Shown in pieces: positions 243-56,300 of a DNA stretch of 64,000 nt. Positions within the stretch are counted from its first letter, which is position 1. Each line of letters starts with the position of its first letter. The notes beneath the pieces were generated by a model. That model was not told the DNA's origin. It did no database searches and worked only from the letters and a program-made list of their open reading frames with translations. The translations under genes were made by a program, and so were the position numbers. This DNA comes from an uncultured Gammaproteobacteria bacterium. GTDB lineage: Bacteria > Patescibacteriota > Microgenomatia > Woykebacterales > RBG-16-39-9b. The stretch is from the NCBI GenBank assembly GCA_965231125.1, contig OZ246414.1, positions 827,239 to 891,238 of the forward strand, in the 5' to 3' direction.

Positions 243-307
243 AATTGTTACTTGTCACCTATAACTTATTACTGATAGACTATACCAGAGCCGTCAACCC
301 GGCAGAT

Positions 308-21485: not shown

Positions 21486-21506
21486 AACGATAGCGAAAGG
21501 GTCACT

Positions 21507-21582
21507 TGGCGCCCCTGGAGGGAGTCGAACCCCCAATCTTTCCCTTAGGACGGGACTGCTTTATCCATTAAGCCACAGGGGC
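21507..21582 (-). tRNA. tRNA-Arg (CCT), probable
   Basis: Acceptor GCCCCTG/CAGGGGC is perfect. T-arm GGTTCGACTCC. Anticodon loop GUCCUAA. CCA is encoded. Confidence 0.6.
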
Positions 21583-29615: not shown

Positions 29616-30466
29616 CTTTCCATTTTAGTATACCAGCTCTCCCCATCACTAACAATTTCGACTGTTCCATTTTGATCGGTTCTGTAAACTTTTGTGCGAG
29701 CACTATCTAATAATTTAACTAGCTCTGGATTCGGGTGGCCGTAACGATTATGAGCTCCAACTGAAATAACGGATATGTCAGGCGAAAGTTTGGCTAGATA
29801 ATTCTCGTCGATTGCAGTTTTAGATCCGTGGTGCGGCACTTTAAGAAATTCTACGTGAGAGGTTGAAGAAGTGTAAGGCTGAACTTGCTCGTCAGCGTCT
29901 GAGGTTAAGAGACCATCAAAATTTTTGTAATCCAACTTTATCACGATCGCAGTTGTGTTTAAATCAGTGTACGGCTGCACCGATCTCGGCCAAATGACAT
30001 TAAGATCTACACCGTCTGGAAAGATGATTTTATCGCCAGCCCAAACGTGCACTTGGTGTAAATGTCTCTCACTGACAACCTTCTCCCATTCCTTGTAAAC
30101 CTGGGTGTTATTAACTGAGTAGCTGGTCCATAAAGTTTTAATCTGATACCTTTTGGCGACCTCGATTAAACCTGTCATGTGATCGGCTTGTGGATGCGTC
30201 AAGACCACTAGATCAAGAGTTTTATCCCAAAGAGGCAGACTCTCACCTAAAAGGCCGACTATTTTATTGTCTGGGCCGCCATCAATTAAGATCTTGTAAC
30301 CAGAAGGCGTCCTAATAAAAATACTATCCCCCTGACCCACATCCAAAACTTTTATATGCAATTTCTTATCCGGAAGCCTAAAAGCGCTTGACCAAATTAG
30401 TATAGAGAAACCCGCAAGGCCAATTATTAAAAACTTACTCTGATTTCTTTTTATATATTCTGACAT
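29612..30466 (-). CDS. Metallo-beta-lactamase-fold domain protein. Probably the detached C-terminal domain of ComEC.
   Basis: DVGQGDSIFI...VLTHPQADHMTGL motif. It overlaps the end of the upstream comEC-like ORF by 32 nt in a different frame. Confidence 0.65.
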   Translation of the reverse strand: MSEYIKRNQSKFLIIGLAGFSILIWSSAFRLPDKKLHIKVLDVGQGDSIFIRTPSGYKILIDGGPDNKIVGLLGESLPLWDKTLDLVVLTHPQADHMTGLIEVAKRYQIKTLWTSYSVNNTQVYKEWEKVVSERHLHQVHVWAGDKIIFPDGVDLNVIWPRSVQPYTDLNTTAIVIKLDYKNFDGLLTSDADEQVQPYTSSTSHVEFLKVPHHGSKTAIDENYLAKLSPDISVISVGAHNRYGHPNPELVKLLDSARTKVYRTDQNGTVEIVSDGESWYTKMER

Positions 30467-31646: not shown

Positions 31647-32268
31647 TTACTAAATCCTTAAGGCCATCAAAAGTTTTGGGCCCGACAACTTTTTTGTTTA
31701 ACAGATCTTGTACTGAAGAGTAAGGCCGCCCTGCAATAATTTTTTGGGCTGTTACTGGGCCAATTCTTGGTAGTGTATCTAATTGCTCGGCGCTTGCAGT
31801 GTTTATATTTACTTGGCCAGAAACGCTTTGACTCCCTACCGTAGTTACTCCTAGCGCACTACCAACATCATTGCTAGAAATTCCCGTGTCACCAGAGCTA
31901 GGAATGTATAACTTTGCCCCATCCGTAATAACTTGGGCAAGATTAAGGTTTTTTGCAATCCAATCTTTATTTGCCCATTGCGTTAAACCACCAGCTGCTT
32001 TTATTGCATCTTCGATTCTGGCGCCATCATAAAGATCATAAACTTTTGGCTTCTTAACTGCCCCTTCAACATCGACTTTTATCTTTAGGCTTTTCTGCGA
32101 TTGGTTTTGGGTGGCTGTCTCAAAAACTGGAGCGGGTTTTGATATATTCAATCTTGGAATCAAAAACCCCAAACCCACGAGGATCACTCCTATTAGACCA
32201 AAAATTATTGAGGCTTTGTATTTCTCTACAAAATCCCAGATGGATGGAGGCGTTTCCTTGGCAGACAT
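31636..32268 (-). CDS. comEA: Competence protein ComEA (SLBB plus helix-hairpin-helix DNA-binding)
   Basis: C-terminal HhH motif VNINTASAEQLDTLPRIGPVTAQKII. N-terminal TM. Confidence 0.75.
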   Translation of the reverse strand: MSAKETPPSIWDFVEKYKASIIFGLIGVILVGLGFLIPRLNISKPAPVFETATQNQSQKSLKIKVDVEGAVKKPKVYDLYDGARIEDAIKAAGGLTQWANKDWIAKNLNLAQVITDGAKLYIPSSGDTGISSNDVGSALGVTTVGSQSVSGQVNINTASAEQLDTLPRIGPVTAQKIIAGRPYSSVQDLLNKKVVGPKTFDGLKDLVSVQ

Positions 32269-35661: not shown

Positions 35662-35687
35662 AAGTCTTTATAACGTGGGGGGGTTTG

Positions 35688-35716
35688 ACAACCACTGATA
35701 TAGTAATATAATTAAG
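35688..35716 (+). promoter_or_regulatory. Consensus promoter (TTGACA-17-ATAATT/TATAAT) for giant gene 1. A TATGCA...TGCATA palindrome lies just downstream (35728-35751).
   Basis: gtttgacaaccactgatatagtaatataatta read directly. Confidence 0.5.
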
Positions 35717-35758
35717 GTAGTTTACCTATGCACAGGTTAAGCGATGCATAGATAAGAT

Positions 35759-38700
35759 ATGCCTACCTCTCTGCCCAAAGAGAATAAGTTAGTACCAATT
35801 GGTGAAGCCGCCGATTTCCTTGGTGTTTCAATTGACACCCTGCGTCGCTGGGACCGCTCTGGTAAACTTCACTCGCACCGCCCCGACAGTAAGAACCGTC
35901 ATTTTTATTTTAATGAGCTAGAACAAATAAAGTTCTCCCAACCGTTCTCGATATCAGAGGCCGCAGCCCGCCTTGGCATCTCCCCCACCACTCTAAGAAG
36001 GCTTGAGAAAAAAGGTTTAGTTACACCAGAAAGGAATAAAAACAGTGAAAGGCTCTACTCGCATGAGTCACTAGAAAAGCTAACCAATTCTCCTCAACTT
36101 CTTCGCCACAATCCTCCTGAAGAAAAAATTATAAGACCATTGGAAAACACAGCGGTCTTACTAAGTAAACAACCGTCAAAGTCGAAGATAAAACCAGAAG
36201 CTTTAGTTGACACTATTGTTGAAACACGAGAAAAAGTTTTAGAGAACTGGGAGAGGGTTCTTGAAGAAAAAGAAAAGGTCATAGAACTTGAGGAAAAGGA
36301 ATTCGAAACAAGAAAAAATCTTAATGCTATTAATAGGGCCAAAAGCCGTTTGTTGCGGTCATTGGCATCGATAGTTCTACTTTTAATAATTACTATCTCA
36401 GCTATCACCACTGCTTATCTTATCAGCCCTGAATCCACGGCTAAATTCTTTGGCTATTACAATCCTCGTAGCTTTCAAAATCAGTCTAGTAAGCCCGCAA
36501 CTTCTTTGGTTGGACAGCGCAGTGGAGAGATCTTGGGAATCCACTATCCAACTAATCTGCCTGCAACATCAAACCCGTTGTCTGACTTACTTAAGCCCCT
36601 AAGCAATGTATCTTTGGCTATCGTTTACCTAGTCAACCGTGAAACTTACAACAAAGTAGTTCCTGCGAAAGTACTAGCAGACGTAAATGAAGCCTTTACA
36701 ATTGATGAGGGAGGAAATCTTGCGCCACTTTACACTATCCGACTTCCCGAGAGTAGTTATCTCGAAGTTCCGGATAAAGGGCTCATCAGCAATCTTAACG
36801 CCGATTATTTACGCGGTAAGGTGCCTGGTAATGAAGAGGGTAACCTAGTTATTTTTGGCGAGGGTGGCTCAGTCGCCAATTTGAAAGTAGATGAGACGAA
36901 CCTTAAGAATGGCTCTGTAAAGGGCGGCCCTGGCGGGGTAATTGCTGACAACACAATCACGGCAAATGATCTAGCACCAGGCATTTCTTTAGGAGGTGGT
37001 GGAAGTGGTGATGTAACGGGAGTTATTGCTGGTGACGGCTTAATCGGCGGCGGAAGCTCCGGAAGCGTAACATTGAATATTGAGGTGGGTAACGGATTAC
37101 AAGTTTCGGCTGATCAACTTAATCTCGATGTGAATACAACCGGAACGACTTCAACTACTTTTGCGAATTCTGGACTGGAAACTAGCAGTAATGGTCTGTC
37201 ATTGCTAAAAGGTTGTGCTGATAACCAAATCTTAAAGTGGGACGCTGGGGCAGTCAGATGGCAATGTGAAGCAGATTCAGGTGGAGGCGGCGGAGGAAGT
37301 ATTGATATTGAAGAAGGTGATGCGACGATAACTTCTGGCGCTGGGTTCCTAGATTTTTTGGCGTCTGACTTTAATGTATCAGACTCGCCTGCTGGCGAGG
37401 CTAATGTCTCTATTGATTATGCAAATAGCGATATAACAAGAAACGACGTGGCCGAAACGATTACTGGAGGTTGGACTTTTAACACAATCCCAACTACCTT
37501 CACTACCGCCATCGATGTTAACTCCGCTTCAACAATCGCTGGGTTAACAGTTGACGGGTCCGGTACATTCACAGCGAACAATGCCGCTACTTTCCTTGGG
37601 AATATTACTGCTAATGACGCTTCGGCGGATACGATACTTATTGGTCAAAACGGTGCCACCGATGACACGGTCACCATCGCTGGCAATATCTCTCTGACTG
37701 ATGATCAGTGGTCTATTTCAGCAACTGGGGTAGCTAGTGGTCTATCCGGAACAAATACTAGTTTAACAGCTGGGGACCTTTCCTGCGCAAATTGTATTGG
37801 TGGTACTGAGATTGATGAATCTACTTTTGGCGCTCTAACTGCCACTTCGCTAACTTCCACTGGGACTCTAGATGTTTCAGGTGTAGCTACCTTTACTGGA
37901 AATATAACGGCAAACGACGCTTCGGCGGATACTATTTTGATTGGGCAATCAGGAGCTACAGACGATACAGTCACGATTGCCGGCAACATTTCCCTTACTG
38001 ATGACCAATGGTCCATTTCGGCTACTGGCGCGGCAAGTGGGCTTTCAGGCACTAACACTGGACTAACTGCTGGTGATCTTTCCTGTACTAATTGTATTGG
38101 CCCAACTGAAATATCCGATTTAACACTAACCGCTGATACTACTGGTGATTATGTGGCCACTATCACTGCTGGTGGCGGACTGACAGGTGATGCAAGCGGT
38201 GAAGGGTCAACACCAACTTTGGCGGTAGGTACTGGCTCTGGAATTACTGTCAATGCCGACGATGTGGCAGTAAACCAGAACTTCTCCTTTGCCTGGACAG
38301 CCGATCATACTTGGACGTTAGCTGGCGCCGAAGATTTGGCTATCAGTCATGACGGTACTGGCGGGGCGGTTGATATTGTGAACATTTCGGCTACTCCCTC
38401 CTCAAGCGCTGGGGCTATGAATGGTCTAGTTATCACTCAAGCTAATTCGGCGAACACTAATCCCCTTGATGCTGGGTTGCGGATCAACAATGCTGATACT
38501 AATCTAGCTATACCAGCGGCAATTCAGATAGCTAACACAGGCGGTGGTGGCTACACTACCATTATAGATAATGCGGGTACTTTGATTTCTGGTACCGAAC
38601 TTAATGTCCTGGACTCTGGAATTGATGAGTCTGAAGTAACCGGTGATATTGAAGCTGTAACAGCCGGTTCAGGACTAACTGGAGGCGGAGCCGCTGACTC

Positions 38701-41700
38701 AGTCACCCTAAATATTGGAGCCGGAGACGGTATTACTGTTAATGCTGACTCCATACAAGTAAGACTGGATACTACTGCCGCTGATGGAGCAACTACTTCC
38801 TCTGTCTCTGGTATGGAGTTTGTGGGTGGAGAACTATCTCTGATCCGGGGCTGTGCTGCCGGCGGCATCCTTGAATGGGATAATGTCGCCTTTGAGTGGG
38901 ATTGTGGTGTTGATGATACTGGAGGAGGTGGGGCTAATAGTTTCGAAACCATCAATGCCCCAGCTGGGACTGACCCAGTGGCTGACTCTGCTACTGACAC
39001 CCTTAACCTGACCGTGACTGAGGCTAACTTAACCATTACTGGTAACTCTGGAACAGATACTCTTGACTTTGATATATCCGAGGCTACCCTAGCCGGAGCA
39101 GGACTCGCCGCCAACGGTGATGCACTGGACGTAGGGGCTGGAGACGGGATTAGCGTGGCCGCCGACTCGGTAGCTGTAAGGCTAGATACTACTGCAGCCG
39201 ATGGGGCGACTACTTCATCGGTCTCTGGTATGGAGTTTGCGGGAGGTGAATTATCTTTAATTAGAGGCTGTGCCGCTGGTGGAATACTGGAATGGGATAA
39301 CGTAGCCTTTGAGTGGGACTGTGGGGTAGATGACACTGGCGGTGGTGGGGCGAACTCCTTCGAGACCATCAACGCTCCAGCTGGGACTGACCCGGTCGCC
39401 GATTCCGCTACTGACACTCTTAACCTGACCGTGACTGGGGCTAACCTGACCATTACCGGAACTGCGGGTACTGATACCCTTGACTTTGATATATCCGAGG
39501 CAACTCTTGCCGGGGCAGGCCTCACCGCCAACGGGGACGCCCTGGACGTGGGTGCCGGGACCGGAATAACCGTTAACGCTAATGACGTGGCCGTCAACAC
39601 TGGGGCGGCCTTTGCCTGGACTGGTCTCCACTCCTGGACTAACACTCTCACTAATGATAGTAGTAGTCAGGATATTAACCTTACTCTTGGTGCCGACGCG
39701 GATGCCGATATCATTTCCGGCCTTAATATTGACGTCACTTCCGCCGCGACGGGAGACGCCGATCTGCTTTACGGGATAAATATAGGGAACGTGACCTCTG
39801 CTGATGGGACGGTTGTGGAGACTGCCCTGCGTATTGGTGAAGACTGGGAGAACGCGGTGGAAGTAGAAGGGTCAACTAACGACGCCGTCGAGACTTACCT
39901 GGTCTTTACGGATCCGACGGTTTCCGATAAAACGATTACCTTCCCTAACGAGACCGGCACGGTTTGTACCACGGGTAGTGTCTGTTCTGGTTACCAAGCC
40001 TCAGGCTCTTTTGTGCCTACCACGCGAACCTTGACCGCCGGTGACGGACTTTCCGGTGGCGGCGATCTCTCCGCCGACCGTTCCTTTGCGGTTAACACTG
40101 CTTCGGGTATAACCACCTCGGCTGACAACGTGGTTCTGGACCTTACTTACGCGGCCGCCTGGACTGGTCTCCACTCCTGGACTAACACTCTCACTAATGA
40201 TAGTAGTAGTCAGGATATTAACCTTACTCTTGGTGCCGACGCGGATGCCGATATCATTTCCGGCCTTAATATTGACGTCACTTCCGCCGCGACGGGAGAC
40301 GCCGATCTGCTTTACGGGATAAATATAGGGAACGTGACCTCTGCTGATGGGACGGTTGTGGAGACTGCCCTGCGTATTGGTGAAGACTGGGAGAACGCGG
40401 TGGAAGTAGAAGGGTCAACTAACGACGCCGTCGAGACTTACCTGGTCTTTACGGATCCGACGGTTTCCGATAAAACGATTACCATACCCAACCGCTCTGG
40501 TACAGTCTCCCTCTCTGGAGATACCTTTACGGGAGACGTGACTGGTACCTTAAATAGTAGTGGAGCCACTGCTTTAACTGTCGCTAGTGACGCTGTTGCT
40601 CTAACGACTGATACTACTGGTGATTATGTATCCTCAGCTACTGCAAGCGGTGGGCTTACTCTAACTGGCACCGAAGGTGCATCACTAGGTATTGACCTGT
40701 CTAGTGGAGACGGTGCTGGTGGCACATCCAGCGGTTCAGGCCTAGAATTAGACGCCAACGGAGTCGGACTACTACAAGGTTGTGGTATTAACGAGATTCT
40801 TAAATGGAATGATGGTGCTTCCACTTGGGGTTGTGCCACGGATGTCTCCGGTGGTACTCCTTCCCTAGATACTATCAGTGCCGCACTCGCCAATGGAAGT
40901 GCTCAAGATTCTAATGCTTTTACCATTAACTGGAACTGGGATTTTCAAGCTGCCGCCGTTGACTCCGGTCTTAATATCTCGGAATCATCAAATTCGACGC
41001 TCGGCACCCAAGACCAACAGGCCCTGGTTGAGATAACAACCCTTGCCAACTCCACTGCCTCACCTTTGCAAGTCACCGCTGGCGGGACTGCTGCCGGTGA
41101 TGTCTGGTTCGATTTAAGCGGCACTTCAGATTTTGAAATCCGCGATGCTGGGACCGCATTTGCCATTTTCAAAAATGATTCGACTACTGACTGGGTTTTA
41201 CCAGCTGCTGGTGACATTGCGATTGACGCGGCGACGACCGACACCACCACCACCGCTGGCGTTTTGGATCTTAACATTGACGCTGGTAACGCTGCTGTTG
41301 ATGGTATCAATATTGACATGGAAGCCGCGGGTGCTATTACTGCGGGTACTGACATTACAGCTTTGGAAATTCTCCTAACCGCAACTGACACCGATGCTGA
41401 TCTATTTGGTATTACCATAGACACTCATGCTACGGCAGGTATTGCTAGTTCATATGATGCTGGCATTAAGATTAACAATCAAGATGACACCGGCGGATCC
41501 ATGCTAGATGGAATTATTATTACAGCCAATACCGATACCGCTATCACCGACGGTCTTGATGTATCGGATGCGGAAATTGTGAATGCTATTAACATTGGTG
41601 GAAATGCCATTGCCGGAACAAACTTTGCTGTCAGTGCTGCTGGCGCCATCACCGCCGCGACAGGCATCACCTCCTCTGGAACAATCACACTTTCCGGTCT

Positions 41701-43504
41701 TGTCAGCTGTGCTGGAATAAAGACGGACGGCTCTGGTGTCTTGAGTTGTAATGCTGCGGTACCAAAATCCCTGGCTGGTACTTGGACCGAAGTTAATACC
41801 GCTGCTAGCCAAACCGATGGAAATATGGATCGAGTCGTGTCTTCCATCCTTCCTGCTGGCGCCAGTCAGGTTAACTCGATCAGGATGCCGTTTGCTGGTT
41901 CTGTCCGGGGTATTTCGGTATCCCTTTCGGCTGCCAGAAGTGCTGACACATTGACTGTTACTGCTTTCGTAAACGGTGCAAGTGTAGGTTTCACCTGCTT
42001 GATTGACGGAACTAACACTCAACGCAACCAGTGCTCTCAAGCTACCGGGCTTGATACCTTTGTTGCCGGTGATACCCTTGAGGCAAAATATAGCACTGGC
42101 GCAAGCTTTGCACCGACTACAGCAGAAATCGAGGTCGAGCTGTGGGTTGACTGGTCAGGAGCAGATGTCGCCGAGATGTACCAGACGAACGATTTTAGCG
42201 TAGAAGCCGGCCACCTAGTCAGCATTGATCCCCAAATCGCTGTCGGAGTCAAGAAGAGCGAGGGAGCGTATGACAAAAATATCGTTGGCGTGATCTCCAC
42301 CGCCGCCGGCTTGACATTAAACGAAGGACTTAATAGTCCAGGCAATGAGGTAAAAGTGGCTTTGGCAGGCCAGGCGCCGGTTTATGTGACCACCGAGAAC
42401 GGGCCTATTAGCGCGGGCGACTACATTACCTCCTCCTCCATCCCGGGAATTGCCATGAAGGCCACCAAAGCAGGGCCCGTAGTCGGTAGGGCCATGACTA
42501 ACTTTGATGGCGATAGAGTGGGTTGGGTGGTTGTCTTTGTCAGCCCCGGGTACTATAACGGTACAAATTTGGCCGGTCTTTTGCCTGATTTAACTACCGA
42601 ATCTAGCTCGCCCGAAAGTTCGACAAGCTCACCACAAGATTTTGGTAAGCAAATCCTAGGTCAACTGCTTACTCAGAAAGATCAACTTACTACTTCAGTC
42701 AATTTCTCGGAAATATTCACTGACCGTCTTGCTGCTGGTCTTGAGATTATTACTCCAAAAATTACCGCCGAAGAGCTGGCGCTTACTGGTAAATTTACCA
42801 TGGTAGATGAAACTGGAAAAGAGACGGTTAGTGTTGACTCCGCCGGCAACGCCTTCTTTGCCGGCACCATTACGGCGGATAAGATTAAAGCAAACCAAAT
42901 TGAAGGTCTGGAAATTATAACTGATAAAATAACCAGCCTTTCGGATAAGTTAGCCAAAATTAGCAGTGCACCTAGTGAAGTGCTACCTTCGGGAGAGGCA
43001 ACCGAAAGCGCATCTAGTATAACGGCTGTAAGTGCCGATAATTCACAAGATCTGGGTAATATAAATGTAGAGTCTGCTAAGGTGGCTCTAGATATGTCTG
43101 TCTTGGGCAATCTGGAGGCTCAAGGAGGATTAGTTGTTGGTGGCCCAGCGGAGTTTAAAGGTGAGTCAGTATTTGAGAAGCTGGCCACATTTGTCGGCAA
43201 CGTAATCTTCCGCGGTGACGTCCAGTTTCTGGGACGGCCAACCTTTAATAAAGACACAGCCGGAACTGCAGTGGTAAAGGCTGGTGATACAGAAGTTGAA
43301 GTCCAATTTGAGCGGGAGTATGAAAACCCACCAGTCGTTACTGCCAGCTTAAACCTATCAGAGGATACCGCAAGTCAAGTACTTACCAGTGCACCCTCTT
43401 ATGGAGTAATATCGGCAACAACTAAAGGATTCAAAATACGTCTTGCTGCTGCGGCGACAAGTGACCTGCAGTTTTCTTGGATGGCAATCTCTGTAAAGCA
43501 GTGA
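35759..43504 (+). CDS. Giant (2581 aa) membrane protein. It has two N-terminal cytoplasmic MerR/excisionase-type HTH domains, a charged coiled region, one TM helix and a >2300-aa Gly/Thr/Asp/Ala-rich repetitive extracellular region. It ends in a conserved C-terminal domain.
   Basis: HTH1 IGEAADFLGVSIDTLRRWDRSGKL. HTH2 ISEAAARLGISPTTLRRLEKKGLV...ERLYSHESL. TM LLRSLASIVLLLIITISAITTAYLI. Recurrent GC..G.ILKW...W.C..D.GGGG motifs. Internal tandem repeats. Confidence 0.8.
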   Translation: MPTSLPKENKLVPIGEAADFLGVSIDTLRRWDRSGKLHSHRPDSKNRHFYFNELEQIKFSQPFSISEAAARLGISPTTLRRLEKKGLVTPERNKNSERLYSHESLEKLTNSPQLLRHNPPEEKIIRPLENTAVLLSKQPSKSKIKPEALVDTIVETREKVLENWERVLEEKEKVIELEEKEFETRKNLNAINRAKSRLLRSLASIVLLLIITISAITTAYLISPESTAKFFGYYNPRSFQNQSSKPATSLVGQRSGEILGIHYPTNLPATSNPLSDLLKPLSNVSLAIVYLVNRETYNKVVPAKVLADVNEAFTIDEGGNLAPLYTIRLPESSYLEVPDKGLISNLNADYLRGKVPGNEEGNLVIFGEGGSVANLKVDETNLKNGSVKGGPGGVIADNTITANDLAPGISLGGGGSGDVTGVIAGDGLIGGGSSGSVTLNIEVGNGLQVSADQLNLDVNTTGTTSTTFANSGLETSSNGLSLLKGCADNQILKWDAGAVRWQCEADSGGGGGGSIDIEEGDATITSGAGFLDFLASDFNVSDSPAGEANVSIDYANSDITRNDVAETITGGWTFNTIPTTFTTAIDVNSASTIAGLTVDGSGTFTANNAATFLGNITANDASADTILIGQNGATDDTVTIAGNISLTDDQWSISATGVASGLSGTNTSLTAGDLSCANCIGGTEIDESTFGALTATSLTSTGTLDVSGVATFTGNITANDASADTILIGQSGATDDTVTIAGNISLTDDQWSISATGAASGLSGTNTGLTAGDLSCTNCIGPTEISDLTLTADTTGDYVATITAGGGLTGDASGEGSTPTLAVGTGSGITVNADDVAVNQNFSFAWTADHTWTLAGAEDLAISHDGTGGAVDIVNISATPSSSAGAMNGLVITQANSANTNPLDAGLRINNADTNLAIPAAIQIANTGGGGYTTIIDNAGTLISGTELNVLDSGIDESEVTGDIEAVTAGSGLTGGGAADSVTLNIGAGDGITVNADSIQVRLDTTAADGATTSSVSGMEFVGGELSLIRGCAAGGILEWDNVAFEWDCGVDDTGGGGANSFETINAPAGTDPVADSATDTLNLTVTEANLTITGNSGTDTLDFDISEATLAGAGLAANGDALDVGAGDGISVAADSVAVRLDTTAADGATTSSVSGMEFAGGELSLIRGCAAGGILEWDNVAFEWDCGVDDTGGGGANSFETINAPAGTDPVADSATDTLNLTVTGANLTITGTAGTDTLDFDISEATLAGAGLTANGDALDVGAGTGITVNANDVAVNTGAAFAWTGLHSWTNTLTNDSSSQDINLTLGADADADIISGLNIDVTSAATGDADLLYGINIGNVTSADGTVVETALRIGEDWENAVEVEGSTNDAVETYLVFTDPTVSDKTITFPNETGTVCTTGSVCSGYQASGSFVPTTRTLTAGDGLSGGGDLSADRSFAVNTASGITTSADNVVLDLTYAAAWTGLHSWTNTLTNDSSSQDINLTLGADADADIISGLNIDVTSAATGDADLLYGINIGNVTSADGTVVETALRIGEDWENAVEVEGSTNDAVETYLVFTDPTVSDKTITIPNRSGTVSLSGDTFTGDVTGTLNSSGATALTVASDAVALTTDTTGDYVSSATASGGLTLTGTEGASLGIDLSSGDGAGGTSSGSGLELDANGVGLLQGCGINEILKWNDGASTWGCATDVSGGTPSLDTISAALANGSAQDSNAFTINWNWDFQAAAVDSGLNISESSNSTLGTQDQQALVEITTLANSTASPLQVTAGGTAAGDVWFDLSGTSDFEIRDAGTAFAIFKNDSTTDWVLPAAGDIAIDAATTDTTTTAGVLDLNIDAGNAAVDGINIDMEAAGAITAGTDITALEILLTATDTDADLFGITIDTHATAGIASSYDAGIKINNQDDTGGSMLDGIIITANTDTAITDGLDVSDAEIVNAINIGGNAIAGTNFAVSAAGAITAATGITSSGTITLSGLVSCAGIKTDGSGVLSCNAAVPKSLAGTWTEVNTAASQTDGNMDRVVSSILPAGASQVNSIRMPFAGSVRGISVSLSAARSADTLTVTAFVNGASVGFTCLIDGTNTQRNQCSQATGLDTFVAGDTLEAKYSTGASFAPTTAEIEVELWVDWSGADVAEMYQTNDFSVEAGHLVSIDPQIAVGVKKSEGAYDKNIVGVISTAAGLTLNEGLNSPGNEVKVALAGQAPVYVTTENGPISAGDYITSSSIPGIAMKATKAGPVVGRAMTNFDGDRVGWVVVFVSPGYYNGTNLAGLLPDLTTESSSPESSTSSPQDFGKQILGQLLTQKDQLTTSVNFSEIFTDRLAAGLEIITPKITAEELALTGKFTMVDETGKETVSVDSAGNAFFAGTITADKIKANQIEGLEIITDKITSLSDKLAKISSAPSEVLPSGEATESASSITAVSADNSQDLGNINVESAKVALDMSVLGNLEAQGGLVVGGPAEFKGESVFEKLATFVGNVIFRGDVQFLGRPTFNKDTAGTAVVKAGDTEVEVQFEREYENPPVVTASLNLSEDTASQVLTSAPSYGVISATTKGFKIRLAAAATSDLQFSWMAISVKQ
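39614..40495 (+). repeat. Exact ~339-bp direct repeat (39614-39952 and 40157-40495) inside giant gene 1, alongside older diverged tandem repeats (37598-38110; 38716-39555).
   Basis: The two copies read identically base for base (gcctggactggtctccactcctggactaacactctcactaatgatagtagtagtcagg ... aaaacgattacc). Confidence 0.75.
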
Positions 43505-43604
43505 TCAAGCTATTAGCCTGCCTACACCTATGCAAAGCTTAACCAATGCATATGGACGCCTTTGTGCTATTGACAAACAAGAAAGCGACAAGTAAGATTT
43601 ATTA

Positions 43605-44042
43605 ATGACCATCCTTACCTGGATAAAACCTTTCTTAAATCTCAAGATCCTTATAATTATTATCTTAATAATCGCTGGTGTCGGTGGGACAGGCTATTTT
43701 TACACAAATTACCAAAAATCACAATCAGAACTTCAGCGGTTTAGGAACGATCCTAAGGAGTTAGTAAAGGAAGAAAACAAACGGTTAATAGAAACTGTAG
43801 GTAAGCTTGTTGAACTACCAAAAGGTGAGGATCCAATCATAGCTACGGTTAACGATATACGCAAACTTAAAGGTCAGCCCTTTTTCATTAAAGCCCTGAA
43901 CGGAGATAAGGTTTTGATCTATACTAAGGCCAAGGAAGCTATTCTTTACCGTCCAAGTACTAACAAAATCATTGAGATAGCGCCGGTTAATCTTGGAGAA
44001 GGTAAATCTAAGTCTGCAACAAGCTCCGCAACAAAACCATAA
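43605..44042 (+). CDS. Hypothetical membrane-anchored protein (145 aa) downstream of giant gene 1.
   Basis: N-terminal TM helix and a soluble Lys-rich domain. No recognisable motif. Confidence 0.5.
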   Translation: MTILTWIKPFLNLKILIIIILIIAGVGGTGYFYTNYQKSQSELQRFRNDPKELVKEENKRLIETVGKLVELPKGEDPIIATVNDIRKLKGQPFFIKALNGDKVLIYTKAKEAILYRPSTNKIIEIAPVNLGEGKSKSATSSATKP

Positions 44043-50268: not shown

Positions 50269-50297
50269 CTTGACAATCAGCCACAACTGTCTCATAA
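50269..50297 (+). promoter_or_regulatory. Consensus promoter (TTGACA-17-CATAAT) for giant gene 2
   Basis: cttgacaatcagccacaactgtctcataat read directly. Confidence 0.5.
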
Positions 50298-50367
50298 TTT
50301 TAATTAGAATTTCCCGTAACGAGAAACTTTTCTCCTTAAGGGAAAGTCTAATTAACTAACCCTGCCC

Positions 50368-53300
50368 ATGGGAACCGAAAATAGTCTAAAAGCCGAATCT
50401 TTACCAAAGGCGGAAGAGAACCAAAAACTTTTACCATATCCCGAAGTCATAAAGCTTGCTAAACAAGCTGGTGTTGATTTTGGGAAAGGCTACCCCTACA
50501 ATAGGCTGCGCTACTACACAAAGATAGGTTTGCTACCCAAAGCCCACCGCCGCTCTTTCGGAGGTCCAGCTGAAGGATGCTACCCATCTTGGGTTGTTGA
50601 CAAATTAATTGAAATCGACAGGCAGCTTAAACAAGGCCAATCAGTCCAATCAATCCTTAGACAAAAGTCGAGTACACCATCATTAACCAATGCTTTATCG
50701 CCCGCTCCCATCTCTTTATACGAAAACCGAAAAATAGCTAACCAAGAGGATTTCGCCCAGTCTACAGATTTCGGGATTGGTGAGCAGTCGACCTACACTG
50801 AAAGTTCAGCAGGTGCTCTCGACTTCATCAGACGTGGAGCTTTATATCTTGGTTTGATGTCAATAATTTTCGTCTCTGGACTCGCAACTGTTTACGAAAT
50901 GCCGCAGAGTCATGACAATGTTCAAAGCCTAGTGAACATTGCAAAAAATAAGTTTTTTGGAACTTATTCACCGAAAAATCTGATCGCTCTCCCAAACCAA
51001 ATCGGAAGTGTGCTGGGACGCACCACCGCCCCTTATTTCAAAGTAAACGTTCCGACCGAAATTACCCATCTGCTCAGTGCCTTTGGTGGAATCAAAACAA
51101 ACGGCGCCAATGCGAATTTAGGGAAAGGTAAACTAACCGCCTCAAACGTTATTTACGATGTCCTTCCTGGCACTAATGTCAGCATCTCTTCTGGTCAAAA
51201 GCCGACCATTTCCGTTTCTGGACTAATCGGATCGGTAAATGGAACTGCCGGAAGAATTACTTCTTCGGGTGGGGACAATCCAACAATTGATATTGCCAGC
51301 AACTATACTGGCCAGACTTCAATCGATACTGTCGGAACAATAGGGAGCGGCGTGTGGCACGGATCCCCCCTTACCGATCCTTATGTTTCCAACAACATTA
51401 CTGTTTCAAACTATTTGCCCCTCTCCGGAGGAACTTTAACCGGTTCTTTGACCTTAAACAACAATGATGGTGGTAGCGGCGATGTTAACTTAATCCTTGG
51501 AGATTCCAACGAATCGGGAGACATAGTTCTTAATAACAGTGGCTTTACTGGCGCTATAACTTCTGGAGCGCTAACTGCGGCAAGAGTCTGGACTCTACCA
51601 AACGAGACCGGCACCATTTGCACCACTACAAGCGGTTGTGGAGCCGCTGGAGTTTTATTCGATATCGCTGCTGATGCTGGTGCAAATCAAAGCGTTACCG
51701 CCGGAGACACCGTTACTCTTACCGGTGGGGCGGGAATCAGTACTTCGGTTGCTGCTGGACCGACGGCAACTTTTGATGTAAATACTGGTAACGGGGTTCA
51801 GATATCGGCAGATGCGGTTGCTTTAGGTCCGTTGACAGCCGATTGGGACCAAACTGGAGCCTTCAATATCTACCTAGACAACGCGGGCAGCAACCTACAG
51901 ATCAGAGAAAACGGTGGCGGAGCCGACAAAGGCATTTTTGATGTTGCCTCGATTGCTGGCGACCAAACTTACACTTTTACAACCGGCGGCACAGTTTGGA
52001 CTTCCGGAAATGATGGCTCCGGTTCTACCTTAGATGCTGATACTCTTGATTCATTGGATTCTTCTCAATTTCTTAGGTCGGATACTTCGGACAGCTTCAC
52101 CTCCGGAACCTTAACCTTTGACAATGGGACTACTCTAACAGTAAATGGGGTCGCCAATATTGGGGATGGTGGGGATGCGGTTGCAATTTCTGGCACGACA
52201 GTCTCGGTAACCGCCAATGGGGCCGGTAATGATATAACTTTGAATTTGGTTGACAACAACACCGATGCCCTAGACATTAAACAGGGCGCTGATAACTATA
52301 TCAATATAAATACTACCAATACAACAGAAAATATCTCGTTCGGTAACGCTGCCACTAACCCCACCTACTCTTTTCTGGGAAGTGGTACAGCTACTTTCTC
52401 TGGAGCAACTACAGTCACTGGTACCCTAACCGCTAACGGCTCCTTTGTAGCCAACAACACCTTCACCTTAGGAGATGGTGGGGACACTGGATCAATCAAC
52501 ACTTCGGATTGGGCCGTGTCAACAACTGGAGACATGACTGGGATTGGAAGTATTGGGGCTGACGGGGATATAACCACTTCCCAAGCGACCCCGTCTGTCT
52601 TTTTGACGGACACAACCGCGGCTTCGGATGATTATTCAATTAACGCTGACGCTAGTACTTTTACCATCCGTAACGAGACAGATGCCAGGGACGATGTCAG
52701 CATTGATGGGTCTGGAAATGTAACTCTAAATTCGGTGGGATCCTTTGGAAACGGCACCTGGTCTTTCTCTTCGGCTGGAGCACTTTCCGGTGTAACCACC
52801 ATCTCAACTTCTTCAACGATAACTTTAGGCGCTCTTGGGGCGACGGATACCACCACTTTGCTTTGTCGTAACTCTGGAAATGTGATTGCCGGTTGTAACA
52901 GCGGTTCTGGTTCTGGACAGGATGCGGATCTTTTGGACGGTCTAGATTCTTCACAATTCCTAAGAAGTGACACTTCGGATAACTTTACCTCTGGTACTTT
53001 AACTACAGATGCTGGAACCACCTTGGCAGTTGCCGGAGATTTAACCATTGCTGATAATAATATTCCTCTGACTGGTGGAGACACTACGATTGACTTGAAC
53101 GCGGCGGCTACGAGAACTTTAACTATTACTAACTCAAATGGCGCGAATGTTGCTAACTTATCTGTCGAAGGCACTGCCACAGCTGCCGATTTCTCCTGTA
53201 GCGATTGTATCGCTTTAACGACTGAAACCTCCGGTGACTATGTTGCCAATGTCGACACGAGTGTATTAACAGGACTAACTGGAGGTTCGGCAGGTTCGGA

Positions 53301-56300
53301 AGGCGCCTCTTTAAGTTTGGCTTTTGATTATTCTCAAGCCCTTTCCGGAGATGTCGGTTTAGGAGCCAACGCCGCCGTCTTCGGCCAATCAGGTTTTGTC
53401 TTCGAAGGCGCGACCGCAAATACCTTCGAAACTTTTCTGGCGGTGACCGATCCAACCGGCGACCGAACCATCACTTTTCCGGATGCTGGCGGGACTGTCT
53501 GTCTTAGTGGCCAGACTTGTGCAACCAGCGGAACTGTCGGTTATTGGAGTCGGACTAGCACAGCTCTTTCACCAGCAACCGGGGGAGATACTGTGGATAT
53601 GGCGGGCGCCATAATAAGTAATATTGGAAATACTGCAACAGATTTTGACACGGGCGGTGGTCTTACGCTGGCGGGTAATCTCGTCGTCCAAGGGACCACG
53701 GGGCTTACCTTTAATACCGGTGCGGGAGGGGACATTACTTTTGCCAACGGCGAGAAGATTGATAACGACACAGATGGCACCGTTGCCATCACTGGTAACG
53801 GATCAATTTCCGGCCACGCGGCAATCGGCGGCTCTGCCAGCATCAGCACCGCCTATTTACTTACCATTCAAGAAACTACTTCAGTTGCTGGCTCGCGCGG
53901 TATTAATTTGGCCCCGACTTTCAACCCGAGCGCCAGCACCATTGATATTTCTTTCAATAACATTCCTACCTTTAGCCCTACCGGTGGGATAACACATACA
54001 GTCGAAGGCCAATACAATAAGATAACTGTTGGAGGTTCTGCGACAATTCCTGTCGCTTATGGCGTGGCAATAGACACGCCGACTATCTCCGGTAGTACTG
54101 TGACGAATTTGTACGGCCTTTACGTTGCAAACCAAACCGGCGCGACGAACAACTACGCTGCGGTTTTTGCTGGTGGCAATGTCGGCATCGGCACCACTGC
54201 ACCAAATCAACTGCTCCATCTCTCATCTTCTGGTAGCCCTGCAGAGCAGTTCACCAGCACGGCTGCTCCAAGCCAAGGTGCCAATGGTGGTTCTACTTTC
54301 AGCGACGATTCCTCTATCGGGACAGTTACTTGGGGTAGCCCATCGAATGCGCAGACAAATGATGCTAGTTATGCCAACGCCACTCTTGCCAGTACTGAAA
54401 TTTCTCACTATCTCAAGGCAACTGATTTCGCTTTCACTGTTCCGGCCACCGCCACGATAACAGGGATTTCTGTTAGTGTGGTCAGAAAAATAAGTGGCGG
54501 ATGCTTATGCATCCTTACGGACAACTCCATAAAGTTGGTAAAAGGCGGAACTATCAGCGGAGATAATAAAGCAGACACCGGTACAGCCTGGACTACCTCC
54601 GATGTCACCGCCACCTACGGCAACAGTAGCGACCTGTGGGGACTTTCCTTAGCCCCTAGCGACGTCAACGCGTCAAACTTCGGTGTAGCTGTCTCTGCTA
54701 CAAATACCATTGGTAGTGCCATCGACGCCGACATTAATTACATCAGCATCACTGTCTACTATACCTATAACAGCTGGGTCGCTGGTCTGAACACAAGTGA
54801 CAGCGGCAACTTCAATATTTCCAATTACACTGCCTTTGGTACAAATGACTACTTTAGAATAGGCTCCTTTGGCAATCTTGCCGTCGGTGCTGGCGCCGGC
54901 AGCGGCAACCTTGTAAACCAAGGCCTTTTTAGCTACCCAACCTTTAGCGGCGGAGCTACCAGCTGTGCGTTTGGATGTACTGGAGTATTTGGGAAAGGAA
55001 AAATAGACAACACCAGCAATAATAATATCGTTATCGGGGTCGGCGGTCAAGTTGAAACTGCCGCTACTTCCTTTACCCTAACCAATGCTATCGCACTTTT
55101 TGCTAACTCGCCTCTTAAAGGCTCTGGGTCCAGCATCACTAATAGTTACGGATTGGATGTCCAAAACCAGGATACTGTGGGGGTAACTACAAGTTATGGA
55201 GTATATATTGAAAATCAGACCGGCACTGGCACTAATTACGGCCTTTATGTTGTTGGGGCCGACACTGACGCTATTTACACCGCTGCCGGATCTAATAAAT
55301 TTGTCTTCGCGACGGGAGACAATTTTTCCATCGATGCCAGTACCACCGCCCAGACTCAAACAGCTGGTACTTTAGATCTAAATATCAACGCCGGCAACGC
55401 TACCGTCACTGGTCTTAATGTAGATTTCATTGCCAACACGGGTATCACTGCCGCGACGGACGAAGTTGGAGCAAAAATTAATCTTACTCAAAACGATGCC
55501 AATGCGGATATGTTCGGTCTGCAAATTAATCAACTAGCGACTTCAGTAACTATCGGTGGTGGAGACTTAGTTGAATGTTTACTTTGTTTAGATAATGCTG
55601 AGAACCAAGCCGCGGCAGTGACAGATGCAATCAGAATCACCAACTCAGGTGGGACTGCAAATGCCATTACTAATGATATTAATCTGCAAAATGGAGAGAC
55701 AATTGATAACAAAACCAACGGTACTATCGCGCTCACCGCAACCACCACCTCACTTTCCGGAGTTCTTTCAATCGATGGTACTTCCGGCACAGCTATTAGC
55801 GTAACAAACACTGGAATCACAACTGACATCAGCCTGCAAAATGGAGAGACAATTGATAATAATACAGATGGAACCATTTCTCTTGGCACTACCACAACTT
55901 TAACTGCAAGCGGTGCTTTAACCATATCAACTGGCAGCAACGGAGTCCTGACTCTTTCCCCCAACGGAACTGGCAATGTAGTGATCAGCGGAACAACTAC
56001 TGGTATAAACTCCGCTCTCGATGTGACCAAAACCACTTCCAGCTGCGGGTTTGGTTGCTTTGGTGTTTTAGCACGTCCTCTTTTTACTACTACCGAGTCG
56101 ATTGCCAACGCTGTGGGTGGGCAGATCCGTACCAATACTGGGGCGGCCCTAACAACGGCCAGTGCCTTACTTGCTGGGGGCCCCAACATAACTGCTGGAA
56201 CCATCACCACTGCAAATGGTTTGTATGTACAGAGTCAGGGCAGCGCCTCAACCACGACAGCAATTGGAATCTACCTTGAACCAATGACGGGATCAACAAA

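What the first reader, a model, noticed from the sequence alone, without database searches (positions are those of the whole stretch)
35688..43504. Membrane-tethered MerR-type DNA-binding domains fused to a 2581-aa extracellular giant protein
The ORF opens with two tandem MerR/excisionase-class HTH domains, then a ~90-aa charged coiled region, a single TM helix, and more than 2300 aa of Gly/Thr/Asp-rich repeats. The repeats include recurring Cys pairs (GC..G.ILKW....W.C..D.GGGG) and T-I-T-F-P-N-E-T-G-T-V-C motifs. The second giant gene (50368) has the same plan. A cytoplasmic DNA-binding head on a giant surface filament resembles a ToxR-like one-component system scaled up enormously. It could couple surface or host contact directly to transcription. 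The TATGCA-N12-TGCATA palindrome (35728-35751), just downstream of its own consensus promoter, is a candidate autoregulatory operator. I know of no described family with this architecture.
Basis: partly seen in the sequence, partly recalled or inferred. Interest (0 to 1): 0.8.

Follow-up and report, generated by a model that had tools for sequence, protein, structure and literature searches.

The report
Giant surface fibre with regulator head
A 2581-residue protein of an uncultured ultra-small (CPR) bacterium joins two DNA-binding domains inside the cell, through one membrane helix, to a very long phage-tail-fibre-like filament outside, and a DNA palindrome conserved at its own promoter suggests it controls its own gene; this kind of membrane-tethered regulator seems not to have been described.

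Summary

The fusion recurs: 214 protein clusters match at E<=1e-30. Of the best 154 members, 53 are at least 1000 aa (maximum 5145), and 51 of those 53 have one TM after the HTH.

CTATGCA/TGCATAG is the most enriched 7-mer upstream of 21 homologous genes (22 occurrences against 0.38 expected). It shows no RNA covariation. A second perfect copy lies just after the gene, ahead of a small membrane-protein gene that also follows the giant in three other loci, as toxS follows toxR.

Giant 2 is a stretched version of roughly 221-aa MerR_1-TM proteins and has a different palindrome.

Best reading: a membrane-tethered, autoregulating MerR-type one-component regulator on an adhesin-like fibre. DNA binding and signalling are inferred, not shown. 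I found no description in the literature.

The parts
35685..35712 (+). Sigma-70-type promoter of giant 1 (TTGACA, 16-nt spacer, TATAAT)
   Evidence: Matches 12 of 12 consensus positions. TTGACA(A) is also among the most enriched 7-mers upstream of homologous genes.
35722..35755 (.). Operator candidate 1: ACCTATGCA-caGGTTAAgCgA-TGCATAGAT. It lies between the -10 box and the ATG and overlaps the ribosome-binding region.
   Evidence: It is conserved at the same place in L002, L003, L004, L005-L008 and L090, and in degenerate form in L091 and L093. The half-site is the top enriched 7-mer. There are no compensatory changes.
35759..43504 (+). Giant 1 gene, 2581 aa
35798..35917 (+). MerR/HTH_17 winged HTH domain 1 (aa 14-53), cytoplasmic
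   Evidence: Pfam; AF2 pLDDT >90; invariant S24, D26, T27, R29, R30, W31 and R47 in homologues
35945..36103 (+). MerR winged HTH domain 2 (aa 63-115), cytoplasmic
   Evidence: Pfam best stretch 64-100 and MerR_1 63-115; AF2; Foldseek matches to NmlR, RacA, GlnR, BldC, CueR and TraN
36110..36193 (+). Low-confidence, probably disordered linker (aa 118-145)
   Evidence: pLDDT <50
36194..36424 (+). One long predicted helix (aa 146-222): a charged cytoplasmic part followed by the single TM segment (aa ~198-221)
   Evidence: AF2 helix H146-222; hydropathy peak at aa 198-216; net charge +3 before and +1 after the segment
36425..36889 (+). Conserved membrane-proximal outer module (PESTAKFFGY ... LKPxS ... 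NLNADYLRGKxPG)
   Evidence: Aligned in P0001-P0004 and P0010. It matches family members over profile positions up to ~400.
36890..42166 (+). Gly/Thr/Ala/Asp-rich repetitive stalk with paired Cys; includes duplicated units
   Evidence: Composition and Cys pairs; direct repeats 37586-38112, 38717-39433, 39614-40456; no Pfam family
42167..42559 (+). phi29 gp12 C-terminal autochaperone / capsid-cement-like beta domain (aa 2137-2267)
43247..43501 (+). H-type-lectin-like terminal domain (aa ~2497-2581)
   Evidence: Pfam H_lectin 20.8 bits against a cut-off of 24; AF2 confident; matches to Helix pomatia agglutinin, SLL-2, the R2 pyocin fibre and the Pam1 tailspike receptor-binding domain
43526..43555 (.). 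Operator candidate 2: ACCTATGCA-aaGcTTAACCAA-TGCATATGG. It starts 22 nt after the giant's stop and ends 14 nt upstream of the next -35 box.
   Evidence: Second perfect TATGCA-N12-TGCATA in the window, against 0.01 expected
43570..43598 (+). Promoter-like site of the partner gene
   Evidence: Matches 10 of 12 consensus positions
43605..44042 (+). Small single-pass membrane protein (145 aa); conserved partner candidate
   Evidence: N-terminal hydrophobic segment and no Pfam family. Homologues lie directly after giant homologues in L015 (54% id), L009 (44%) and L092 (58%).
50270..50298 (+). Promoter-like site of giant 2 (TTGACA, 17-nt spacer, CATAAT)
   Evidence: Read directly from the sequence
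50300..50355 (.). Inverted repeat in the giant 2 leader that contains ATTTCCCGT / GGGAAAG boxes
   Evidence: 27-nt arms, 89% complementary. A related palindrome, TTTCCCGTgACGGGAA or ATTTCCCtcacGGGAAAT, follows the promoter in L084 and L088. This rests on few loci, and the 7-mer is not enriched in the window as a whole.
50368..57495 (+). Giant 2 gene, 2375 aa: divergent MerR_1-like head, one TM, stalk, the same gp12-like domain and a lectin-like end
57532..59769 (+). Wzy_C (O-antigen-ligase family) plus TPR protein, syntenic partner of the giant 2 family
   Evidence: Pfam. The same gene follows the ~221-229-aa MerR_1-TM homologues in L085 and L087.

Best explanation
Giant 1 is a type-II (N-in, C-out) membrane protein. 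Two tandem MerR-type winged-HTH domains sit in the cytoplasm. One long helix links them through the membrane to a filament of about 2360 residues outside. That filament is built like a phage tail fibre or spike: a repetitive stalk, a phi29-gp12-like trimerising autochaperone domain, and an H-type-lectin-like tip that probably binds a glycan on another cell or surface.

The cytoplasmic heads recognise (C)CTATGCA boxes. In this window the boxes form a 30-bp palindrome right after the -10 box of the protein's own consensus promoter, a position where binding should repress. A second copy lies in front of the next gene, which encodes a small membrane protein that is a conserved partner candidate.

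The protein therefore most likely works as a membrane-tethered one-component regulator. It feeds back on its own synthesis, and its DNA occupancy depends on how many fibres are in the membrane and on their oligomeric or engaged state.

Shown here by computation: the architecture, the MerR fold, conservation of the fusion, conservation and promoter placement of the boxes, the phage-fibre-like C-terminus, and the partner synteny.

Inferred: that this head (rather than a paralogue) binds the boxes, that binding represses, the trimeric state, the ligand, and any relay of an outside signal.
For: Architecture
- Continuous ORF.
- MerR Pfam hits well above threshold.
- AF2 model with two confident wHTH domains and a helix 146-222.
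- All top Foldseek matches are MerR-family domains bound to DNA, and the list also includes the tandem-HTH protein TraN.
- One hydrophobic segment, more positive charge on the N side, and all 9 Cys pairs outside.

The fusion is real and old
- Homologues at 25-40% identity carry the same HTH-TM-juxtamembrane module.
- At least 12 loci from genome representatives carry an HTH, one TM and an ORF of 630 to more than 3600 aa.
- A profile search gives 214 clusters at E<=1e-30. Of the best 154 members, 53 are >=1000 aa, 25 are >=2000 aa and 6 are >=4000 aa. Of the 53 long ones, 51 have a single TM at aa 80-350.
- The same HTH-TM chassis carries other ectodomains, including SH3_3, LytR_C and LVIVD. 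Swapping of the sensor domain is typical of sensor proteins.

Operator
- Two perfect copies in the window against 0.01 expected.
- The same palindrome lies immediately before the ATG in L002, L003, L004, L005-L008 and L090.
- In 1.22 Mb of loci the full motif occurs 13 times, 9 of them within 100 nt upstream of the HTH gene and a 10th overlapping the called start in L012.
- An unbiased 7-mer count puts CTATGCA first, with 22 occurrences in 13 of 21 loci against 0.38 expected.
- Soluble proteins with the same recognition helix have 2-5 direct TGCATAGATT repeats over their promoters: 51 hexamer hits against 1.67 expected.
- There are no compensatory changes in the would-be stem.
- In other loci the boxes also occur as direct repeats, inside the -35/-10 spacer, or upstream of the -35.

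Ectodomain

Partner
- The small TM protein follows the giant in 4 divergent loci.

Independent parallel
- Giant 2 belongs to a second MerR_1-TM family. It has its own palindrome after its promoter and a conserved neighbour gene.
Against: - There is no experimental evidence of DNA binding, topology or regulation.
- The boxes could be bound by a soluble paralogue with the same recognition helix rather than by the tethered head.
- The right arm overlaps a Shine-Dalgarno-like AGG, so part of its conservation may come from translation signals.
- The promoter has a 16-nt spacer and the site lies downstream of the -10. That is not the classical MerR arrangement of an operator inside a 19-20-bp spacer.
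- A trimeric fibre, as the gp12-like and lectin folds suggest, does not fit a dyad-symmetric operator in any obvious way.
- Some homologous loci (L024, L013 proximal region, L010) show no clear box near the start.
- The partner gene is absent after the giant in L004, L090, L091 and L093.
- The Pfam matches to Peptidase_G2 and H_lectin are below threshold.
Confidence: 0.55

Rival explanations
1. Release by proteolysis, as in Notch, MYRF or TcpP. The fibre holds the MerR heads at the membrane. Shedding, tension or ligand binding then triggers cleavage, by a site-2 protease or in the disordered linker at aa 118-145. The soluble head is the active regulator.
For: A Peptidase_M50 (site-2 protease family) gene lies in the same window at 245-973. 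A low-confidence linker separates the heads from the helix. Regulated intramembrane proteolysis of the membrane-bound regulator TcpP, and proteolysis of ToxR, are documented (PMC4388833). MYRF joins a DNA-binding domain to a phage-tailspike chaperone domain and a TM helix (PMC13294678, citing PMC3742443).
Against: M50 proteases are common and nothing here links this one to the giant. The phage-like autochaperone domain is outside the cell and near the C-terminus, not between the DNA-binding domain and the TM as in MYRF. Membrane-bound regulators such as ToxR act without being released (PMC7496328).
Confidence: 0.15
2. DNA anchoring rather than gene regulation. The heads tether the chromosome, or the protein's own gene, to the membrane at the base of the fibre. 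This would resemble RacA, or would help co-translational insertion of a 2581-aa protein.
For: RacA-DNA complexes are among the best structural matches, and there is a weak NCBIfam RacA hit. The two perfect sites bracket the 7.8-kb gene.
Against: In nearly all loci the boxes sit at promoters of the HTH genes, including those of small soluble homologues that have no membrane anchor. That is the signature of autoregulation. The 64-kb window holds only two sites.
Confidence: 0.1
3. The boxes belong to a soluble paralogue. The giant gene is merely a target of that regulator, and its own HTH domains are inert or act as competitors or decoys.
For: Soluble ~240-aa CPR proteins with the same 'LGVSIDTLRRWD' helix have the same boxes at their promoters.
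Against: The residues that define the MerR HTH are invariant or nearly so across TM-class homologues at 25-45% identity, which argues for selection on DNA binding. TM-class genes with two HTH domains often carry a distinct palindromic arrangement with a conserved GGTTAACCAA core, which I did not see in the soluble-class promoters printed.
Confidence: 0.1
4. The inverted repeat is an RNA hairpin in the 5' leader that masks the ribosome-binding site or stabilises the mRNA. On this reading it is not a protein-binding DNA site.
For: In this window it lies between the -10 box and the ATG. Its right arm overlaps an AGG, and its left arm contains CCT. Giant 2 also has a long inverted repeat in its leader.
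Against: Across 10 sites, none of the 9 pairs shows a change on both sides, and pairing is no better than in shuffles. In L005-L007 only 5-6 of 9 positions pair. In other loci the same boxes occur as direct repeats, within the -35/-10 spacer, or upstream of the -35, where they are not transcribed as a hairpin.
Confidence: 0.05

Closest known systems
ToxR/ToxS, TcpP/TcpH, CadC and VtrA/VtrC (membrane-bound one-component regulators of Vibrio and enterobacteria)
   Same: An N-terminal cytoplasmic DNA-binding domain, one TM helix and an extracytoplasmic C-terminal part. A small single-pass membrane protein is encoded next to it. DNA is presumed to be bound at promoters while the protein stays in the membrane (PMC7496328, PMC4388833).
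   Different: The DNA-binding domain is MerR-type and duplicated, not an OmpR/PhoB-type winged helix. The outer part is about 2360 aa of phage-fibre-like filament rather than a periplasmic domain of about 100 aa. The organism is a monoderm-like CPR bacterium.
MerR family regulators, including the minimal or atypical members BldC, RacA, GlnR/TnrA, NmlR and the tandem-HTH protein TraN of pIP501
   Same: The fold and signature of the wHTH domain. Like BldC and excisionases, relatives bind arrays of short boxes, inferred from the direct repeats. TraN also has two such domains in one chain.
   Different: There is no effector-binding C-terminal domain. A TM helix and ectodomain take its place. Here the operator lies downstream of a promoter with a 16-nt spacer, not inside a 19-20-bp spacer.
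MYRF (eukaryotic membrane-bound transcription factor with a phage tailspike chaperone domain)
   Same: One polypeptide combines a DNA-binding domain, a TM helix and a phage-derived, trimerising intramolecular chaperone-type domain (PMC13294678).
   Different: In MYRF the chaperone (Peptidase_S74) domain lies on the cytoplasmic side, between the DNA-binding domain and the TM, and cuts the factor free. Here the gp12-like (Peptidase_G2-like) domain lies outside the cell, about 1900 residues beyond the TM. The DNA-binding domains are unrelated.
Phage tail fibres and spikes and R-type pyocin fibres; the phi29 gp12 pre-neck appendage
   Different: It is encoded among housekeeping genes (LeuRS, ATP synthase) and is anchored in the cell membrane by an N-terminal TM helix with a cytoplasmic regulator head.
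RsgI-type anti-sigma factors of clostridia (my own knowledge, not checked here)
   Same: A cytoplasmic regulatory head, one TM and swappable carbohydrate-binding outer domains.
   Different: RsgI binds a sigma factor, not DNA, and its ectodomains are small.
Giant genes reported from metagenomes (for example Omnitrophota; bioRxiv 10.1101/2023.11.21.568195)
   Same: Very long surface-exposed proteins in uncultured bacteria with symbiotic or predatory lifestyles.
   Different: That paper does not contain the terms MerR, helix-turn-helix, transcription or DNA-binding.

Membership tests
MerR family (Pfam PF00376 / PF13411) | N-terminal winged helix-turn-helix with the MerR signature | tested here: met
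   PF00376 scores 78.8 bits (cut-off 28.2) with two stretches, and PF13411 scores 63.6 bits (cut-off 21.6). AF2 and Foldseek match NmlR, GlnR, CueR and BldC.
MerR family (Pfam PF00376 / PF13411) | Long dimerisation helix followed by a C-terminal effector-binding domain | tested here: not met
   A long helix (aa 146-222) exists but runs into the membrane. No effector domain is present; a TM helix and ectodomain follow.
MerR family (Pfam PF00376 / PF13411) | Dyad operator inside an over-long (19-20 bp) -35/-10 spacer | tested here: not met
   In the window the spacer is 16 nt and the palindrome lies downstream of the -10. In L012, L075 and L076 a box does sit in the spacer just after TTGACA.
ToxR-like membrane-bound one-component regulators | Cytoplasmic N-terminal DNA-binding domain, single TM, extracytoplasmic C-terminal domain | tested here: met
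   One hydrophobic segment, charge bias, and Cys pairs only on the C-terminal side. No dedicated topology predictor was run and there is no experimental test of topology.
ToxR-like membrane-bound one-component regulators | OmpR/PhoB-type winged-helix DNA-binding domain | tested here: not met
   Only MerR/HTH_17-type hits were found, and no Trans_reg_C hit.
ToxR-like membrane-bound one-component regulators | Adjacent gene for a small single-pass membrane partner (ToxS, TcpH or VtrC type) | tested here: inconclusive
   A 145-aa TM protein follows the giant in the window, L009, L015 and L092, but not in L004, L090, L091 or L093. No interaction was tested.
ToxR-like membrane-bound one-component regulators | Binds promoter DNA while membrane-anchored and responds to an outside cue | not testable with these tools
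   Only indirect evidence exists: conserved boxes at the protein's own promoters.
Peptidase_G2 / phi29 gp12 C-terminal autochaperone | Fold of the gp12 C-terminal fragment | tested here: met
Peptidase_G2 / phi29 gp12 C-terminal autochaperone | Sequence match above the Pfam gathering score | tested here: not met
   16.2 bits against a cut-off of 25, covering only profile positions 49-99 of 228.
Peptidase_G2 / phi29 gp12 C-terminal autochaperone | Trimerisation-dependent self-cleavage | not testable with these tools
   Needs protein chemistry.
H-type lectin (PF09458) | Sequence and fold of the H-type lectin domain | tested here: inconclusive
MYRF-type self-cleaving membrane transcription factors | Peptidase_S74 chaperone domain between the DNA-binding domain and the TM on the cytoplasmic side | tested here: not met
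   No S74 hit was found. The chaperone-like domain is at aa 2137-2267, far outside the TM at aa 198-221.

The most novel reading that the evidence does not exclude
These proteins are contact or tension sensors of ultra-small episymbiotic bacteria. A very long fibre with a lectin tip touches a host cell. The mechanical or clustering event is passed down one helix, or converted into proteolytic release of the head, to MerR domains that re-programme transcription. This would be a bacterial counterpart of Notch/MYRF-type signalling. The stalk length, from 0 to more than 4000 residues across family members, would set the sensing distance.
Probability: 0.15. Interest if true: 0.9.

Novelty: new variant of a known kind. 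Interest (0 to 1): 0.78.

Why it matters
Membrane-tethered transcription factors are rare in bacteria, and those studied so far have small periplasmic sensor domains. This is a large, conserved family: at least 214 clusters at 50% identity, with members up to 5145 aa. Its members put a MerR-type head on a phage-fibre-like surface filament, and a recognisable operator sits at their own promoters.

CPR/Patescibacteria have tiny genomes, few known regulators and a host-attached lifestyle that is poorly understood. A protein that is at once a likely attachment fibre and a regulator gives a concrete, testable link between cell-surface events and gene expression in these organisms.

The work also yields:
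- a predicted DNA motif for a CPR-wide HTH clade;
- a candidate partner protein;
- a clear case of a regulator gene expanded by insertion of a stalk of roughly 2000 aa (giant 2 against its ~221-aa relatives).

Tried and rejected
- **Artefactual fusion (missed stop or frameshift).** Rejected. The ORF is continuous, and the fusion recurs in dozens of divergent proteins.
- **RNA hairpin reading of the palindrome.** No covariation, and the box arrangements vary.
- **Rfam.** Only tRNAs were found in the window.
- **Direct profile comparison of the giant 2 head with the giant 1 family.** No HTH match; only the KFFG motif after the TM, at E 0.14. The link to MerR came instead through the ~221-aa homologues.
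- **PDB sequence searches** with the whole protein and with the shared C-terminal domain. Nothing significant; the relationship to gp12 appeared only at the fold level.
- **PHROGs.** Only HTH hits for giant 1, and a weak tail-fibre hit for giant 2.
- **ATTTCCC half-site of giant 2.** Not enriched across the window, so that operator remains a lead resting on three loci.
- **Literature.** Seven full-text searches plus look-ups in three papers found no description of a membrane-bound MerR protein or of HTH-headed giant proteins. The library lacks many subscription papers, so absence is not proof.
- **Prophage origin of the gene.** Unlikely given the flanking LeuRS and ATP synthase genes and the conserved chromosomal contexts, although the fibre modules are clearly phage-like.

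Full report
**1. What is in the sequence**

The ORF 35759-43504 on the plus strand is uninterrupted and encodes 2581 residues. Pfam finds two MerR-type domains at the N-terminus:
- PF00376, 78.8 bits against a gathering score of 28.2, with two stretches;
- PF13411, 63.6 bits;
- HTH_17, 43.2 bits.

NCBIfam agrees, with partial matches to HspR, excisionase, MerR, ZntR, SoxR and others.

An AlphaFold2 model was built from 13 homologous sequences. It gives pLDDT above 90 for residues 10-110, which form two winged helix-turn-helix units. Residues 118-145 are a low-confidence linker. Residues 146-222 form one continuous helix. All of the best Foldseek matches in the PDB are MerR-family DNA-binding domains, mostly in complex with DNA: NmlR, RacA, GlnR, BmrR, BldC, CueR and CarH. 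An excisionase and the tandem-HTH protein TraN also match.

The protein has a single strongly hydrophobic segment, residues 198-216, inside that long helix. Net charge is +3 just before it and +1 just after it. All 18 cysteines lie beyond residue 486 and come in nine close pairs. Both features fit an N-in, C-out orientation.

The rest is rich in Thr, Ala, Gly, Ser and Asp. An independent assembly of the same population breaks inside the gene, so the copy number of these repeats is uncertain. The reading frame is not in doubt.

**2. Where it comes from**

The window matches a 67-kb contig of JGI metagenome 3300010391. It carries housekeeping genes:
- LeuRS directly upstream;
- an ATP synthase operon downstream;
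- ArgRS, NusG, L1, MreB and eight tRNAs.

The closest protein relatives are named Levybacteria, Daviesbacteria, Microgenomates and Patescibacteria. Some record titles say 'uncultured Gammaproteobacteria' or 'Saccharibacteria'. I take those as MAG labels and did not check them. This is a chromosomal gene of a CPR bacterium, not a phage gene.

**3. The fusion is conserved**

A search with the first 377 residues found proteins at 25-40% identity. They share the HTH domains, the TM helix and a conserved membrane-proximal outer module (PESTAKFFGY..., NLNADYLRGKxPG). Most of them are cut off by contig ends.

In one genome per species, at least twelve loci carry an N-terminal HTH, one TM at residues ~105-270 and a long ORF:
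- complete ORFs of 2698, 2666, 1421 and 630 residues;
- truncated ORFs of more than 3600, 3476, 3392, 1899, 1821, 1793, 1649 and 858 residues.

A profile search of 1.84 billion representatives gave 745 proteins at E<=1e-10 and 214 at E<=1e-30. Of the best 154 members:
- 53 are at least 1000 residues, 25 at least 2000 and six at least 4000 (maximum 5145);
- 51 of the 53 long ones have a single TM at residues 80-350;
- most have two HTH copies, some have one or three.

The same HTH-TM chassis also carries short ectodomains. Examples are SH3_3 in proteins of about 300 aa, LytR_C in a 903-aa protein and LVIVD beta-propeller repeats in a 4430-aa protein. A missed stop or frameshift is therefore excluded.

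**4. The outer part resembles a phage fibre**

The two giants of the window share one clearly homologous domain, 42% identical. Pfam gives it only a sub-threshold Peptidase_G2 match.

From my own knowledge, all of these are trimer-forming modules of fibres and spikes. I therefore infer a trimeric filament with a glycan-binding tip. The oligomeric state was not modelled.

This C-terminal module is itself a widespread CPR family. It is attached to many different N-terminal parts.

**5. The palindrome is a conserved DNA element**

The promoter 35685-35712 matches the consensus at 12 of 12 positions. It extends to ACCTATGCA-N12-TGCATAGAT.

The window holds two perfect TATGCA-N12-TGCATA copies against 0.01 expected. 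The second, at 43529-43552, lies between the giant's stop codon and the promoter-like site of the next gene.

Upstream of homologous genes the same element recurs at the same place, ending 4-8 nt before the ATG:
- L002: ACCTATGCAaaGGTTAACCAATGCATAGGT;
- L003, L004, L005-L008 and L090: variants of this;
- L091 and L093: weaker versions;
- L092: two copies further upstream.

In 1.22 Mb of fetched loci the full motif occurs 13 times. Nine of these lie within 100 nt upstream of the HTH gene, and a tenth overlaps the called start in L012.

I counted 7-mers in the 200 nt upstream of the 21 TM-class genes without assuming any motif. CTATGCA/TGCATAG ranks first, with 22 occurrences in 13 loci against 0.38 expected. 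That puts it level with the -35 element.

Soluble proteins of about 240 aa across CPR have the same recognition helix (LGVSIDTLRRWD). They carry two to five direct TGCATAGATT repeats over their promoters: 51 hexamer hits against 1.67 expected.

The element does not behave as an RNA hairpin:
- Across ten sites no pair shows a compensatory change, and pairing equals the shuffled control.
- In L005-L007 only five or six of nine positions would pair.
- Elsewhere the boxes occur as direct repeats (L006, L013), inside the -35/-10 spacer (L012, L075, L076) or upstream of the -35 (L001).

A regulator gene preceded by a conserved motif across distant lineages is the usual comparative signature of autoregulation. 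That the tethered head is the protein that binds it remains an inference.

**6. A partner gene**

The next gene, 43605-44042, encodes a 145-residue protein with an N-terminal hydrophobic segment and no Pfam family. Homologues lie directly after the giant gene in L015 (54% identity, 25 nt after the stop), L009 (44%, 10 nt) and L092 (58%, 79 nt). They are absent after the giant in L004, L090, L091 and L093. The arrangement recalls toxRS and tcpPH.

**7. Giant 2**

Its head is not recognisably similar to that of giant 1 and falls below the Pfam threshold on its own. It is, however, 42-51% identical to Patescibacteria proteins of about 221-229 aa, which have:
- a MerR_1 match that passes the gathering score in those scanned (26-27 bits against 21.6 for P0277 and P0287);
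- a single TM;
- a C-terminal domain that matches the very end of giant 2.

Two of these small genes (P0281 and P0286, loci L085 and L087) are followed by a gene of about 740 aa for a TPR protein, with Wzy_C detected in L087. Giant 2 is likewise followed by the Wzy_C+TPR gene at 57532-59769. Giant 2 thus looks like the same regulator with about 2000 residues of stalk inserted.

Its leader holds a 27-nt-arm inverted repeat with TTTCCCGT/GGGAAA boxes. Related palindromes follow the promoters in L084 and L088. This rests on three loci, and the 7-mer is not enriched in the window.

**8. How it most likely works**

The best-supported model is a membrane-tethered one-component regulator. The heads bind the palindrome, which lies at about +4 to +33 relative to the presumed transcription start. 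Binding there should repress (inference from position). The amount of fibre in the membrane would then limit its own costly synthesis.

The single helix from cytoplasm to outside, the swappable ectodomains and the partner protein suggest that assembly, clustering, ligand binding or loss of the fibre changes DNA occupancy. None of these steps has been tested.

Rival readings are:
- release of the head by proteolysis; an M50 protease gene is in the window, and proteolysis of membrane regulators is known (PMC4388833);
- DNA anchoring of the RacA type;
- binding of the boxes by a soluble paralogue;
- an RNA leader hairpin.

**9. Comparison with what is known**

It works like ToxR, TcpP or CadC but is not a member of that group, because its DNA-binding domain is MerR-type. 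It belongs to the MerR superfamily by its HTH domain. It lacks the effector domain and the classical promoter geometry.

It shares with eukaryotic MYRF the combination of a DNA-binding domain, a TM helix and a phage chaperone-type domain. The order, the side of the membrane and the domain families all differ (PMC13294678).

Seven literature searches found no description of membrane-bound MerR proteins or of regulator-headed giant proteins. The preprint on giant genes mentions no such domains. The searched library is incomplete, so prior description cannot be ruled out.

**10. Verdict**

I rate the finding a new variant of a known kind, with high interest.

Noticed in passing
window 43605-44042; L015 14279-14740; L009 9944-10444; L092 7352-7798: A small single-pass membrane protein (145-166 aa, conserved '...PTIATV.D..K.K.QPFF..A.NGDKVLIY...K.A.LYRPS') lies directly after giant homologues in four divergent loci. 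It is a candidate ToxS-like partner.
   Followed up: partly
L016-L079 (e.g. L037 3670-3790, L062 9870-9990, L063 4160-4280): Soluble MerR-HTH proteins of about 240 aa occur across many CPR lineages. They carry 2-5 direct TGCATAGATT repeats, spaced 10-11 bp apart, over their own promoters. The repeats overlap -35-like TTGCAT and extended -10 elements. This gives a predicted operator for a CPR-wide regulator clade.
   Followed up: partly
window 50368-57495 and 57532-59769; L085, L087: Giant 2 is the positional counterpart of ~221-229-aa MerR_1-TM proteins. It has about 2000 aa inserted between the TM and a conserved terminal domain. The gene pair with a TPR protein (Wzy_C detected in the window and L087) is conserved. 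The O-antigen-ligase-family neighbour might glycosylate the Ser/Thr-rich stalk, but that is speculation.
   Followed up: partly
window 245-973: A Peptidase_M50 (site-2 protease family) gene, relevant to a possible proteolytic release of the membrane-bound heads.
   Followed up: no
window 29612-32268; L085 and L087 1-1418: Competence genes lie near both systems. ComEA, ComEC and a metallo-beta-lactamase-fold domain lie upstream of LeuRS in the window. DprA and a ComM-like Mg-chelatase lie divergent from the small giant-2-type MerR-TM genes.
   Followed up: no
window 49337-50161 (-): A 274-aa ORF next to giant 2 has weak XM1_gp53 minor-capsid and Phage_cement_2 hits (E ~1e-4). This is the same fold class as the gp12-like domain inside both giants.
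   Followed up: no
window 39614-39913 and 40157-40456: A 300-nt direct repeat inside giant 1 is 100% identical, with a 543-nt period. An independent Logan assembly breaks inside the gene, so repeat copy number may be mis-assembled.
   Followed up: partly
window 8656-13149 (-), 20793-21536 (-), 60473-62953: Other surface machinery: a 1497-aa subtilase with FG-GAP, fn3 and CarboxypepD_reg domains, a sortase, and a DUF2961 protein with a dockerin domain.
   Followed up: no
L090 1653-2363; L091 233-977: An HTH_17 antitoxin-like gene plus a PIN-domain gene lies divergently upstream of two giant homologues.
   Followed up: no
L006 4286-4340 and 8273-8301; L013 5676-5781: Further clusters of (C)TATGCA boxes, as direct repeats 19-23 bp apart, lie in intergenic regions away from the HTH gene start. 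In L013 they precede a two-gene stretch that runs into the giant gene. They are possible additional regulon sites.
   Followed up: partly
L015 14825-15073: An 82-aa HTH_17/MerR-like ORF follows the partner gene of a giant homologue.
   Followed up: no
   Followed up: yes
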